From the NCBI RefSeq assembly GCF_006345805.1, contig NW_021833760.1, forward strand, positions 1-55,228: a stretch of DNA of 55,228 nt, read 5' to 3'. Shown piece by piece: positions 7,019 through 27,316 of this stretch (the first letter of the stretch is position 1; the number at the start of each line of letters is the position of its first letter). The notes beneath the pieces were generated by a model. It ran no database searches. It was not told the origin of the DNA and saw nothing but the letters and a program-made list of their open reading frames with translations. Position numbers and translations under genes: made by a program. The DNA comes from Octopus sinensis (taxonomy: Eukaryota).

Positions 7019-8044
7019 TTTATTTTATATATATATATATATATACATATATATATATGTATATATAATGTGTGTGTGTGTTTATTGGCACAGGCTTAGA
7101 AGCGTTAAGAGGTTTGCTTTGCAACCATATAATTCTGGATTGGTTCTCATTGCATGAAAGTATCTTCCACTCTAATCGGAGGGCGAGCAATGCAAGCGTT
7201 TGAATAAATTTTGTAGCCGAAGCTTTTCATGAACCATCACATACAAATTTGAATGCATGGTGCATTCAGTCCGATGGTTCTCTATACCCATTTCACTCAA
7301 AAAGCATTGGTTGAGCCAAGACTATAGATAATTACATTTTTCTAAAATCTCAGACAGTTAACTCGAAACTGTGACGTAATGATTACTAACATACTACTGA
7401 ACAATTCGCCAAACTGCGCATTCAAACATATCTTAACTCATTCAATGGAATTCATTTAAGCTCACTTAAGACAGTCTTAGGACCGGTTCATTTCATTGTC
7501 TGCCGATATTCTACGATATTTTCTAGAAGAAAATTATTATTAGCTTTGTATGTAACTGCGTAGTGCATTGTTATCTTGCGCAAAAGACTTCATTTCACGT
7601 TGCTCTACTATGACTTCGACATCTGATGTGTAACACACAGTGTCCCTTTACATGTCATACAGGCAATATTGATTTGCTTGAGGGAGTGAGCTAATATGCA
7701 GGACAAACATTTCATCTCTGTAAAAAATCATTTAGGTAGGTTATTCAGTAAGAAATTGCGGAATTTCTATCAGTTATTTACTTCAGGAGAGTCCACTATG
7801 TACCAAATAATGTTGGAGTCCTGAAGTTAACGACTTCACTCTGGACGCTATGGCATTGGTCAGTGTACAAACAAAATGAGAAAGAATGGTAATGTTGAAC
7901 TACAAAAAGTTTGATGCGTAAAATAAAATTCTAAGGAGAAAATTAGATAGGTTATATGGAAATAACAGAATAGGATTTCGAAGCATAAATTAAGAGTCGA
8001 AGCATGAAAATATTGATTTCTAATATTTGTGTAAGGCCAAATAT

Positions 8045-8229
8045 TTGTTGCGAATCGATAGAGCTGATTAAATCGATCCCAGAGTGTGCTAATGGTTTTC
8101 ATTTTATCTGACTTGAAGAGATGAAAGGCCAAGTCAAACCCGACGGGATTTTAACTGAGAACGTAAAGGGAGGTAACTAAATATAGTAAGGGATTTAGTA
8201 TGGCATTCTACCACTTCTGCTGATCATCC
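8045..8229 (-). mobile_element. SINE family B, degenerate, inside the GPCR-like 7TM exon
   Basis: Similar to the reverse complement of 10827-10980. Confidence 0.6.
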
Positions 8230-8880
8230 TCATGAAGCATAACATTGGAACCACTCCAAGAGCTGCACCAAGTACTGCAACTCGTTAGAATTCTTCACTG
8301 GTTTGTGTCGTTCTAACCTTCTACATTTTCCTTGATTTACTACAAATCATTATTACAATAAATATCTCAAGAGTCTCACTAATATCATAAGTTCACCCAT
8401 TCATACATATCTATATATATGCATATATATATATATATATATATATATGTTTGTATGTGTGTGTGTGTGTTTGTGCGTGCGTATATATGTGTGTGTTTGT
8501 GTGTATGCACACACACGCACTTGCACCCCTCACAAATATATGAATATATACCTAAATGTGCATATACACATACATATTTATATGTTTACTTGTTTGTGTT
8601 TTTGTGAATGTTTACAGCGCTACTAAAGTCAACTACCTTTATACAGATTGCTTTCTAACACGTGTGCTTGAAAAGCTGAAAGCATAGAAAAGCATTTAAC
8701 ACTCAGCAAAAACTTCCTTCCGAAAGTTTGTACTATTCTGGTTTGTATTTAAAGATTTTATAAAAACAGTACTTTTTAAATTTAAGAAAATCTTTCTTCA
8801 TATATATATATATATATATATATATATATATATATATATATATATATATATATATATATATATATATATGTATATATATA

Positions 8881-24609: not shown

Positions 24610-25050
24610 GTTGTCTCCCCTTACTCACAACACAGGAACTGAAGAACCAGGACCACAATTACTACTACTTCCTGTCCTGCAAACATGCTGAATTAAACAA
24701 CACAACACAACACATGCTCTTAATCCCTTTGGATCTTAACACCTCAAGGTAATTTTTTCGTAAACAACCATAAAACGCAAGATACACAACGAACTCACAA
24801 TGTATCGGAGAACTTATTTTTTAATTTTTGTACATTTTTATCATTATTCTTTTACAAAAAACAATGCAATTTTCTTTTTTTCCCCTTTCTAATTTTTAAA
24901 AAAACTTCTTAAAACCTAAATATTCTTGACAAGTCATACAATGACGAAAACCGGTTGAATAAATATACATTTATATATTTTATCATTTTCTCATTTTATT
25001 AAAATTTTCTTTCATTTGAGCATTCTGCATTTTAAAAAAAATTTTCCTTA
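24610..25050 (+). mobile_element. Probable PLE 3' remnant with hammerhead-like motif
   Basis: TATTC-TTGACAA-GTCAT-ACA-ATGAC-GAAA-ACCGGTT-GAATA at 24921-24961; ends at (TA)n. Confidence 0.5.
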
Positions 25051-27316
25051 CTTATATATATATATATATATATATATATATATATATGTCACCACGTAGC
25101 AGAGGAAACAGTACAGTTTCGTCAAGTAATCGGCGGCCTCTTGAGTTTTTGAGCTTAGTGATCTATGCGGGATATGTTCTATCAACAACTGTACTTCAGT
25201 ACAGTATTTAAGTATTTTTATATAGCAATTGGACATTCTCAAACTAAGAGGAACTATTAGATGAAAAACAGTTTAAATTTTCTCAAGCAGTTTAAAGTAT
25301 TTAAAAAATAAGGACACTGACACTACGATAGTTTATAATGACGTCACCTAACAGCGAAGTGTAACTAATACAGAATGTCGATTTTGGTAACAGAAGAGTT
25401 GACAAAGCAGAATATCAATATTGATATGCAAATTCAGTGATGACATCGATATCAGTGAATAAAATAAGTGTAAGTTATTTTAAGGCAGGAAATATTGAAT
25501 ATGTAAAATACATTTGAAAATTACGAGTATTAAACATAAACCGTAACCACCTCTAAATCTAACGTACAAAGTGTCTAGCTCTTAAACAAATGAGAAAGAT
25601 CGTGAAGTAAAGGTAGGTATTAAAAAAAGAAAGAAAAAGGATTTCGACTGATTTGTTAATCAGAACAAAACTGAAAACACTCTTTAAATATACAATTTTA
25701 GCTTTCAGGTCCACGACATTGCGTGAATGGGAATAAATGGGGGGAAAATAAAGCACAAAAAACCCCCACAAAAACAAAGAAAAAACACCAACAAAAATCA
25801 ATAACAAAAGAGAAAGAAAATTGTTTAAATCTGAAAGACGATACTTGTTACAAAGTGCTATGTTCGTTGAATAGCATTCGTGTTGAGTGTCAGACAAGTC
25901 AAGTGTTACTTAAAGTTTTATTCTACATCCTTCCAAACATGCACACATACATACACGTGTGTGTGTATCTCTCTCTCACACATACAATCACACACACATA
26001 AATGTGTATGTATAAATATATATATGTATATATATATATATATATATATATATATATATATATATATATATATATATATATATATATATATATATAATAT
26101 ATATATATATAAATATATGTGTGTGTGTGTATATATATATATATATATAAACGCATGCACACACACGCATGTATACATGTATGTATGCATGCATGTATCT
26201 ATATATATATATCAGGCATTATATACTTCACGATATTGTATATTTTACACGTTGTACACCTCCATTGACTATTACACATACATCAAATACGTCAAATTTT
26301 GTGATATATACGTGAGTGTGTGAGTATGTGTGTATATACACATACGAATATGAAGTGTTACCATTTGTTGAACATGTTAAAGGATTGAGATGACAGTATA
26401 CTTTCAGGTACTCTGTATATCCGTCTGTCTGCCTGTCCGTCTAGTTATCAATCAATCTATATTTATCTGTGTGTTTATATTATTTTGTTATTGGTATATA
26501 GATTCTCACAAGAGTTTGTGTTTTACTTATACACATTCATATACACACACACACATACACATGCTTACGTACGGACATGCAGATGCACATACGCACACAC
26601 GCTACATATATGAGTATGTCTGTGTTTGTTGTGCTGTGTGCGCATGCGTATGCATACCTATTCGAAGAATACTGAATAATAGAGATTTATTTTTTTGAAG
26701 CTAAGGCTGCAGCCCATTGTTGCTCTCAGATAGAGTATTCCAAGTAACTGCAGATGAAACTTATTCGATGACAGTTTCAGAAGTTTTCATACTTAAAACA
26801 TGCATATATTCATCCATATATTTATATTCACAAGACGAATTAATAAACGCACACGCACACACACATACACACACTCGCACACGTACACTCACACACACAC
26901 ACACACACACACACACACACACACACACACACACACACACACACACACACACACACACACACACACACACATATATATATATAAATCAGAGCTTCACTTA
27001 ACAGTTCATCAGGCAATTGTGATCATATCATAGTCCTCTTATGAACGATTACGTGAAACTCTGAGAAACATTTCATTCTAACTTTGGTTGTTGAATACTA
27101 TTTTCCCACCTTGCTTTGCACCTAGGTACTTACTAGTGTGTGTGTGTGAATGTGAGTTTGTGTACGTATGTATATGTATGTGTATATATATATATATATA
27201 TATATATATATATATATATATATATATATATATATACATATATATGTATGTGTGTGTGTGAACATATATATACATATACATACACGCATACATATATACA
27301 CACACACATGCATATA

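What the first reader, a model, noticed from the sequence alone, without database searches (positions are those of the whole stretch)
7780..25910. Hidden fossil class C GPCR-like gene spread over 18 kb
Seen, in the correct order on the minus strand: 25640-25910 (YLKSVFSFVLINKSVEIL), 25094-25243 (KILKYCTEVQLLIE), 23450-23582 (TIIIDCEPPKESIA), 22756-23230 (RLHVRYKFKQF / PTSDNE / GIVSIDDEYGR..KFR, ending AAG|GTGAGT), 17025-17147 (TTCTAG|AATCCTTGG, NPW, ending |GTATGT), 12365-12885 (GGFLL..GGNVTFNKDG / YEI; CKLI..IRWEP plus a hydrophobic stretch), 8230-8345 (HKPVKNSNELQYLVQLL..CY), 7940-8040 (IRNQYFHASTLNLCFEILF), ~7800 (IIWYIVDSP). Known CaSR motifs, recalled from memory: AMIFAIEEIN, QFKSFLRTIPND, IAADDDYGR..EKFR, TPIVKATNRELSYLLL, LRQPAFGISFVLC, IWLYTAPP. 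Inference: an unprocessed pseudogene of a divergent nutrient/taste-type class C receptor, suggesting birth-and-death of a little-studied chemosensory family in this lineage. TM5-7 were not found.
Basis: partly seen in the sequence, partly recalled or inferred. Interest (0 to 1): 0.75.

Follow-up and report, generated by a model that had tools for sequence, protein, structure and literature searches.

The report
Dead class C receptor gene fossil
A badly decayed remnant of a gene from the glutamate, calcium and taste receptor family lies among the repeats here; its sensor end is clearly recognisable and closest to jellyfish and coral receptors, the other pieces likely belong to the same dead gene, and it would be a lost amino-acid sensor of a probably octopus-like animal.

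Summary
The listed peptides and splice-like borders are present. Standard searches find nothing. Using real class C proteins and a frameshift-aware aligner, one part beats chance in whole-window scans: Venus-flytrap lobe 1 at 23563-22983. It scores 34.3 bits against at most 26.1 in 102 control runs, and 22.4 against 11.9 with a profile chosen afterwards. A 235-nt SINE-like insert with a 7-nt target duplication splits TM2 from TM3. The other pieces are only suggestive: unguided chain tests do not recover the whole gene. About 10 frameshifts and over 15 stops mark it as dead. The best match is a cnidarian lineage lying between mGluRs and the CaSR group; a tree cannot place the fossil. Birth-and-death of a chemosensory family is unsupported: no second copy, and no cephalopod class C expansion is reported. 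Expression and intact orthologues are untested. The scan's notes hold no look-alike. Verdict: an old pseudogene of modest interest.

The parts
25637..25778 (-). Probable first coding remnant: start of the Venus-flytrap domain up to the end of its first long helix; no intact donor
   Evidence: Suggestive. The end block 25711-25637 ranks 8, 3 and 9 of the strand under three profiles and 137 under the cnidA profile.
25170..25243 (-). Probable second exon, beginning exactly at a polypyrimidine-AG acceptor and continuing the profile where the previous piece stops; one frameshift; donor uncertain
   Evidence: Suggestive. Ranks 8, 63, 16 and 10; acceptor shown.
23354..23581 (-). Lobe-1 exon remnant with CxC, the V.GG..S loop and D...Q; acceptor ends at 23582; 2 frameshifts, 2 stops.
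   Evidence: Shown. Score 22.4, rank 1, control max 11.9, next best on the strand 6.9 with the cnidA profile; rank 2 with the general profile; BLASTP E 0.019 against P0212 in the right place.
23180..23353 (-). About 135-140 nt interruption inside lobe 1 (decayed intron or insertion); two alternative placements, 23353-23215 or 23315-23180
   Evidence: Gap needed in every lobe-1 alignment; neither placement has clean splice sites.
22755..23214 (-). Lobe-1/hinge exon remnant (F..FL.T.SD, DDEYGR, KFR), ending at a strong donor; the part after about 22980 is unrecognisable
   Evidence: Shown for 23214-22983. Rank 1, 14.9 vs control max 8.7; hhalign E 6e-4 for the single comparison. The 22990-22750 part ranks 56-59.
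17024..17148 (-). Probable small exon starting with NPW, with strong acceptor and donor; three consecutive stops
   Evidence: Splice sites seen; protein similarity is not above controls (rank 113-151).
12362..12882 (-). Probable exon: end of lobe 2 (V.F..DG, Y.I), shortened cysteine-rich domain and TM1; acceptor and GT donor present
   Evidence: Suggestive. Last-Cys/TM1 block 12523-12379 ranks 1 (18.2 vs 13.4) with the deuterostome profile, 18 and 14 with the two others, 28 with cnidA. V.F..DG block ranks 9-75.
7782..8320 (-). Probable exon: intracellular loop 1 to TM4, ending at a GT donor; interrupted by the SINE-like insert
   Evidence: Suggestive. With the insert removed it ranks 1 (3.7 vs 2.4) with the mGluR profile, 27, 27 and 3 with the others, 61 with cnidA. 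All seven reference groups score above local shuffles (mean z 0.75-3.1).
8006..8240 (-). 235-nt SINE-like insert with a 7-nt direct repeat at 8240-8234 and 8005-7999, between TM2 and TM3
   Evidence: Shown. Aligns with three other copies in the window, 63-67% identical to them while they are 77-89% identical to each other. Removing it leaves one stop-free frame across the junction.
7718..7781 (-). Possible 64-nt intron after TM4
   Evidence: GT donor and polypyrimidine-CAG acceptor seen; inferred, not tested.
7281..7717 (-). Probable last exon: extracellular loop 2 to TM7, with intracellular-loop-3 and TM7 motifs in one frame (6 stops, no frameshift).
   Evidence: Suggestive. Block 7568-7281 ranks 6 with the deuterostome profile, 5 of 300 local shuffles as high; other profiles 11, 22, 65 and 104 of 300.

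Best explanation
The minus strand holds the decayed remains of a class C G-protein-coupled receptor gene: the Venus-flytrap lobe-1 remnant at 23.6-23.0 kb is broken by stops and frameshifts, and the weaker pieces from 25.8 kb down to 7.3 kb likely belong to the same dead, intron-bearing gene, which would once have made an amino-acid-sensing receptor. Shown: lobe-1 homology, the lesions, the SINE-like insert with its target duplication, and splice-like borders. Inferred: that the downstream pieces are exons of the same gene (about nine exons; flytrap, cysteine-rich domain, seven helices). Also inferred: that it has been dead a long time, because the insert is more decayed than its sister copies. 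Further inferred: that the ancestral protein worked like its family, as a dimer whose flytrap closes on an L-amino acid (possibly with calcium) and signals through the cysteine-rich linker to a G protein. The Ser of the V.GG..S loop and the Tyr of DDEYGR are still readable; that they grip the amino-acid backbone is recalled family knowledge. It is most likely the loss of an old single gene rather than one casualty of a young expanding family. Today it does nothing as a protein gene.
For: Of 48 representative references, 34 had the anchor motif and were scanned blind over the whole window. P0212 (Sanderia jellyfish) scored 34.3 at 23469-23061; the 102 control runs reached at most 26.1. Adjacent profile blocks rank 1 and 2. 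The cnidA profile gives 22.4 against control max 11.9. Canonical AG or GT signals stand at about ten proposed borders. The 235-nt insert has a 7-nt target duplication and its removal leaves one open frame. Aligned blocks hold about 10 frameshifts and over 15 stops.
Against: Pfam (0 class C hits in 21 frames), PDB, six-frame hmmsearch and tblastn show nothing. Whole-profile spliced alignments do not beat controls. Three blind chain tests do not recover the gene, and an unrelated chain from 11635 to 2678 beat all 23 controls, so false chains occur. Each downstream block is good under only one of three to five profiles, and a different one each time. The unguided ICL1-TM7 alignment ranks 19-53. 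Of the other 33 references none exceeded the control range. The cnidA profile was chosen after the P0212 match was seen. Most of lobe 2 is not recognisable.
Confidence: 0.7

Rival explanations
1. Only the lobe-1 fragment (about 23.6-23.0 kb, perhaps with the two 5' pieces) is real, a truncated or partly duplicated gene. The downstream motifs are chance look-alikes in AT-rich DNA.
For: Downstream blocks fail unguided tests. They are good under different profiles each time. hhalign gives E 0.07-0.33 for five single-frame pieces other than the hinge.
Against: Four downstream blocks lie in receptor order on one strand with near-expected spacing inside exons. TM5-7 were found right after TM4, and splice signals bound the blocks.
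Confidence: 0.17
2. It is a dead duplicate from an expanding, turning-over chemosensory class C family in this lineage. This differs from the best explanation only in origin.
For: Such turnover is the rule for fish OlfC genes (PMC2668830 passages). Lophotrochozoans carry more class C genes than four mGluR classes need: 14-19 in six molluscs and 51 in Capitella, and 12 full mGluR-type genes in Lymnaea.
Against: No second copy in 55 kb. No close relative found in either protein library (weak because the queries were single decayed frames). No cephalopod class C expansion.
Confidence: 0.2
3. It is a decayed metabotropic glutamate receptor paralogue (classes I-IV), not a member of a separate lineage. 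This differs from the best explanation only in family.
For: ICL1-TM4 scores best with mGluRs. An AU test does not reject grouping lobe 1 with mGluRs (p 0.60). Only one full-length bilaterian mGluR flytrap was available for comparison.
Against: The fossil lacks the mGluR loop-3 motif (13 of 13 bilaterian mGluRs) and TM7 motif (5 of 5). It shows the alternatives found in 0 of 13 and 0 of 5 of them. Its CxC and D...Q match cnidA (5 of 5 and 4 of 5).
Confidence: 0.15
4. Nothing here is a gene remnant; even the lobe-1 match is chance.
For: All standard searches are blank. An E of 6e-4 is expected about once among the roughly 1,450 equal-sized frame pieces of the window.
Confidence: 0.06
5. The gene is intact and the breaks are assembly errors.
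For: Raw reads could not be examined.
Against: About 10 frameshifts, over 15 stops and an old insert with a target duplication. Lobe 1 is at most 25% identical to any reference over 166 columns. Nine runs from six studies under four organism labels hold half or more of the 31-letter words of 22150-25900, up to 0.95; the best may be the source sample.
Confidence: 0.02

Closest known systems
Cnidarian class C lineage called cnidA here (P0212 Sanderia malayensis; P0053 Acropora millepora, named extracellular calcium-sensing receptor-like; P0213, P0097, P0205)
   Same: Best lobe-1 match (z 8.6 and 6.2 for P0212 and P0053; profile 22.4 vs 11.9). Shares CxC, D four before Q, D[DE]YG and NPW.
   Different: The fossil is dead and apparently has introns; intron status of the cnidA genes was not checked. 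Its membrane part fits cnidA poorly (ranks 28-140). cnidA is a clade (97/94) outside the mGluRs and short of the CaSR group, and P0212 is equidistant from mGluR3 and CaSR structures (367 vs 362 bits).
Calcium-sensing receptor group (CaSR, OlfC/V2R, T1R, and hemichordate and echinoderm CaSR-like proteins)
   Same: DDEYGR and CxC as in cichlid CaSR P0218; loop-3 and TM7 motifs of this group; best scores for TM1 and TM5-7.
   Different: NPW is absent from the vertebrate and hemichordate members tested (0 of 21). The membrane domain appears split by introns, against the six stereotypical OlfC exons (PMC2668830). PMC11584096 traces these subfamilies only to jawed vertebrates.
Metabotropic glutamate receptors, classes I-IV (PMC6307864)
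   Same: Same flytrap, cysteine-rich, 7TM architecture; NPW; best ICL1-TM4 score. Several invertebrate mGluR loci also have introns in TM1 or loop 1.
   Different: Lacks the mGluR loop-3 and TM7 motifs and has a D[DE]YG hinge.
V2R/OlfC and T1R pseudogenes of vertebrates
   Same: A dead, unprocessed class C receptor gene.
   Different: Those lie in clusters of young paralogues; this one stands alone in 55 kb and is far more decayed.

Membership tests
Class C GPCR, mGluR/CaSR/T1R architecture | Venus-flytrap (ANF_receptor) domain | tested here: met
   Lobe 1 significant in blind scans; Pfam itself blank on single frames; most of lobe 2 unrecognisable.
Class C GPCR, mGluR/CaSR/T1R architecture | Nine-cysteine domain (NCD3G) | tested here: inconclusive
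   Only the last-Cys/TM1 block scores; the stretch is about 28 codons short by my count and the central cysteines are not readable.
Class C GPCR, mGluR/CaSR/T1R architecture | Class C seven-helix domain (7tm_3) | tested here: inconclusive
   Guided blocks rank 1, 1 and 6 under their best profiles; unguided ICL1-TM7 ranks 19-53.
Class C GPCR, mGluR/CaSR/T1R architecture | Domains colinear on one strand | tested here: inconclusive
   Order is right, but blind chain statistics do not beat controls.
Unprocessed pseudogene | Disabling stops, frameshifts or insertions in the coding sequence | tested here: met
   Two frameshifts and 2 stops in 23563-23354 alone; about 10 and over 15 in all; 235-nt insert.
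Unprocessed pseudogene | Introns with splice signals retained | tested here: met
   AG or GT signals at about ten block borders, including the donor after 22755; not tested against chance.
Unprocessed pseudogene | No functional transcript | not tested
   No reads were laid on the region.
CaSR group (CaSR, V2R/OlfC, T1R, GPRC6A) | Groups with CaSR in a tree | tested here: inconclusive
   End branch 7.7, placement unreliable; mGluR grouping not rejected; the test with CaSR did not finish.
CaSR group (CaSR, V2R/OlfC, T1R, GPRC6A) | Non-mGluR motifs in the hinge, loop 3 and TM7 | tested here: met
   Motif counts; the fossil's loop-3 and TM7 motifs are themselves decayed.
mGluR classes I-IV | Loop-3 TR.[ICV]P and TM7 S[AG][TS]V motifs | tested here: not met
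   Present in 13 of 13 and 5 of 5 bilaterian mGluRs, not in the fossil.
mGluR classes I-IV | Glutamate side-chain residues (Arg78, Lys409 in PMC6307864) | not testable with these tools
   Those stretches are too decayed to align.
Birth-and-death chemosensory family | Several young paralogues, often clustered | tested here: inconclusive
   None in the window; no genome is held; no cephalopod class C expansion in PMC6408891.

The most novel reading that the evidence does not exclude
This is the fossil of the last copy, in an octopus lineage, of an ancient class C receptor lineage that lies between mGluRs and the calcium/taste receptors and is otherwise seen here only in jellyfish and corals. It would show that such receptors, which PMC6307864 suggests may have been lost in bilaterians, survived in molluscs and were lost late in octopods. 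That would give a datable gene loss to set beside shell loss and the rise of chemotactile receptors.
Probability: 0.25. Interest if true: 0.55.

Novelty: new member of a known kind. Interest (0 to 1): 0.3.

Why it matters
Old pseudogenes are common, and this one has no function today. Its value is historical. If the animal has no intact relative, it records the loss of a non-mGluR class C receptor in a protostome, whereas the papers read here trace CaSR, T1R and V2R only to jawed vertebrates. An intact orthologue in squid, cuttlefish, Nautilus or other molluscs could then be found by synteny and tested for amino-acid or calcium sensing. It also shows that such remnants sit below the reach of Pfam and BLAST.

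Tried and rejected
No genome is held, so paralogues and synteny could not be searched.

Standard searches were blank. Pfam on 21 read-through frames gave no class C family. PDB with two pieces gave one unrelated hit at E 1.7 and none. The word-index search with 22953-23180 gave 0 of 14 candidates. The 1.84-billion library with 12370-12883 gave one hit, a tandem-repeat junk ORF, which I rejected. tblastn of 99 class C ORFs and six-frame hmmsearch gave noise only.

The first two scoring schemes of my aligner were dropped: one rewarded any open frame, one was too strict. The third was then fixed. Whole-profile and chain tests were negative. A TM5-6 hit at 3340 was rejected as the antisense strand of a LINE. 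My first idea that the 5' pieces were spurious and that 23.7-23.5 kb encodes that part was dropped: 25243 scores better than 23.5 kb under all three profiles. A by-eye mGluR-type TM5-6 reading at 7650-7520 was not supported (rank 71). The tree with the read-through peptide is uninformative. The motif scan of prokaryote genomes found 0. No tRNA or Rfam family was found.

No RNA holder was listed; this is no evidence on expression. No reads were laid, so expression and fixation of the lesions stay open. No language-model look-alike search was obtained. Four transposon ORFs are not in the protein collection, so no call names the organism.

Motif searches in supplements say nothing, because long runs were cut (PMC6307864) or the proteome file was cut (PMC11589774). 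Eight literature searches listed no paper on a cephalopod or mollusc CaSR-type receptor or on this pseudogene; only the listed top rows were seen, and most subscription journals are not held. Five look-ups in the scan's notes showed nothing on this DNA.
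Full report
Setting. The window is AT-rich animal DNA (25-38% GC in 2-kb bins apart from one at 49%), full of microsatellites and transposon remains: a reverse-transcriptase LINE at 770-2953, mariner at 14.7-15.7 kb and Tc1 at 30.3-31.4 kb. The SINE-like repeats look like octopus SINEs to me; that label is recalled and no call names the organism. 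No genome is held. There is no tRNA or Rfam match.

The observation. All quoted peptides are in the minus-strand frames at the given places and in receptor order. Standard tools see nothing: Pfam on 21 frames, PDB, the word-index search (0 of 14 candidates), the 1.84-billion library (one junk repeat ORF), tblastn and six-frame hmmsearch. To test properly I collected real class C proteins. A motif scan of metagenome contigs gave 112 loci and 99 distinct ORFs. Two homologue searches listed 120 of 252 and 94 of 94 proteins. They cover cnidarian, echinoderm, hemichordate and vertebrate receptors and partial bilaterian mGluRs; none of the named ones is from a mollusc. I wrote a codon-level aligner that allows stops, frameshifts and introns, and scored it against the plus strand, both reversed strands and local shuffles.

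What is firmly there. Thirty-four of 48 representative references had the anchor motif and were scanned blind. P0212, from the jellyfish Sanderia, scored 34.3 at 23469-23061; the 102 control runs reached at most 26.1, and the other 33 references stayed in the control range. Nine of 34 best hits fell in 22900-23700, but control strands had hot spots of 8 of 34, so that count is not evidence. With a general profile the hinge block ranks 1 (14.9 against 8.7) and the block before it ranks 2. P0212 belongs to a small cnidarian clade, here cnidA (97/94). A six-sequence cnidA profile, chosen after the match was seen, scores 23563-23354 at 22.4; control strands reach 11.9 and the next place on the same strand 6.9. 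Pairwise tools agree weakly: E 6e-4 and 0.019.

What is probably there. The two 5' pieces join sensibly: the second starts exactly at an AG acceptor and continues the profile where the first stops. They rank 3-9 and 8-63; the first drops to 137 with cnidA. The NPW piece has strong splice sites but no protein signal. The last-Cys/TM1 block ranks 1 with the deuterostome profile (18.2 against 13.4), and 18 and 14 with the others. Between TM2 and TM3 lies a 235-nt repeat copy flanked by a 7-nt direct repeat. With it removed the frame runs open across the junction, and ICL1-TM4 ranks 1 with the mGluR profile (3.7 against 2.4) but 27, 27 and 3 with the others. After TM4 come a possible 64-nt intron and one frame carrying loop-3, TM6 and TM7 motifs at near-expected spacing. 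Five of 300 local shuffles reach its score with the best profile, and 11, 22, 65 and 104 with the others.

What speaks against. Whole-profile spliced alignments and three blind chain tests do not single out this chain. In one search an unrelated chain beat all 23 controls, so convincing false chains do arise here. Each downstream block depends on a different profile. I put the lobe-1 remnant at about 0.92 and the whole-gene reading at about 0.7.

Dead, and for long. The aligned blocks hold about 10 frameshifts and over 15 stops. The insert is 63-67% identical to three sister copies that are 77-89% identical to each other, so it is old. Nine runs from six studies under four organism labels hold half or more of the words of 22150-25900, which argues weakly against assembly error; the best of them may be the source. 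No reads were laid.

Which receptor. The fossil has CxC before the V.G loop (cnidA 5 of 5, CaSR pair 1 of 2, all others 0), D four before Q (cnidA 4 of 5, others 0) and a D[DE]YG hinge. It has decayed forms of the non-mGluR loop-3 and TM7 motifs and lacks the mGluR ones, which occur in 13 of 13 and 5 of 5 bilaterian mGluRs. Only one full-length bilaterian mGluR flytrap was in the set, so the lobe-1 counts say little about mGluRs. cnidA itself lies between mGluRs and the CaSR group, and P0212 scores 367 bits on mGluR3 and 362 on CaSR. This fits a fossil whose middle leans to mGluR and whose ends lean to CaSR. A tree cannot place it: the branch is 7.7 long and grouping with mGluRs is not rejected (p 0.60); six references without the anchor motif were left out of that tree.

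Mechanism. Today it has none. The ancestral protein is inferred to have been an ordinary class C receptor for an L-amino acid, possibly modulated by calcium. The loop serine and hinge tyrosine remain readable; their ligand role, and the role of the CxC pair in linking CaSR subunits, are recalled family knowledge.

Literature. PMC6408891 (passages and supplement 1 read): 19 class C genes in each of three cephalopods, no cephalopod class C expansion. PMC6307864 (passages, part 1 of 2 of a supplement table, and a cut alignment file): four mGluR classes in Lottia, and unclassified non-bilaterian mGluRs that may have been lost in bilaterians; I did not check whether cnidA is among them. PMC11584096 and PMC11526382 (passages): CaSR-group subfamilies, T1R and V2R traced to jawed vertebrates. 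PMC11589774 (passages and partial supplement searches): 12 full mGluR-type genes in Lymnaea; its cut files may hold relatives I could not see. PMC2668830, PMC12716839, PMC4302439 and PMC8590024: passages only. Eight searches listed no paper on this gene or on a cephalopod CaSR-type receptor. Intact mollusc relatives may well exist in databases that my word-limited searches did not reach.

Verdict. A real, very old, probably full-length pseudogene of a class C receptor: a new member of a known kind. The birth-and-death claim is unsupported. The one point of wider interest, a late loss of a cnidarian-type lineage in octopods, is possible (about 0.25) and can be tested with mollusc genomes. Interest 0.3.

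Noticed in passing
window 31800-35750: An old AT-rich tandem array of about 85-nt units (spacings of 84-88 and multiples), copies only 60-80% alike. Tandem Repeats Finder misses it; direct-repeat families show it.
   Followed up: partly
window 770-4175 (+): A fairly young LINE with a 727-codon open frame (RVT_1, E 4.9e-30) continuing in shifted frames to about 4160; it lies 3 kb beyond the fossil's end on the opposite strand.
   Followed up: partly
window 14671-15700 (-) and 30300-31415 (-): Decayed mariner (HTH_48, Transposase_1) and Tc1-type (HTH_Tnp_Tc3_2, DDE_3) transposons; the mariner lies inside a presumed intron of the fossil.
   Followed up: partly
window 6482-6660 and 6855-7018: A pair of inverted repeats, 82-89% alike, just downstream of the fossil; it looks like a non-autonomous DNA transposon.
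   Followed up: no
window 37750-38200 and 39870-40320: Two similar antisense LINE-like stretches about 2.1 kb apart, seen by eye in the sequence; no Pfam hit in the five of six frames tested.
   Followed up: no
window 49138-50100 (+): Low-complexity open frames rich in P, H, T and A; either triplet microsatellites or an exon of a neighbouring gene.
   Followed up: no
loci L065, L068, L058, L007, L043, L036, L060, L056: Full-length class C receptor genes in single open frames of 895-1333 codons, so without introns, in metagenome contigs.
   Followed up: partly
PMC11589774 supplement 11, near part 178: A Lymnaea protein with several Venus-flytrap domains in tandem, a different class C-related architecture in molluscs.
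   Followed up: no
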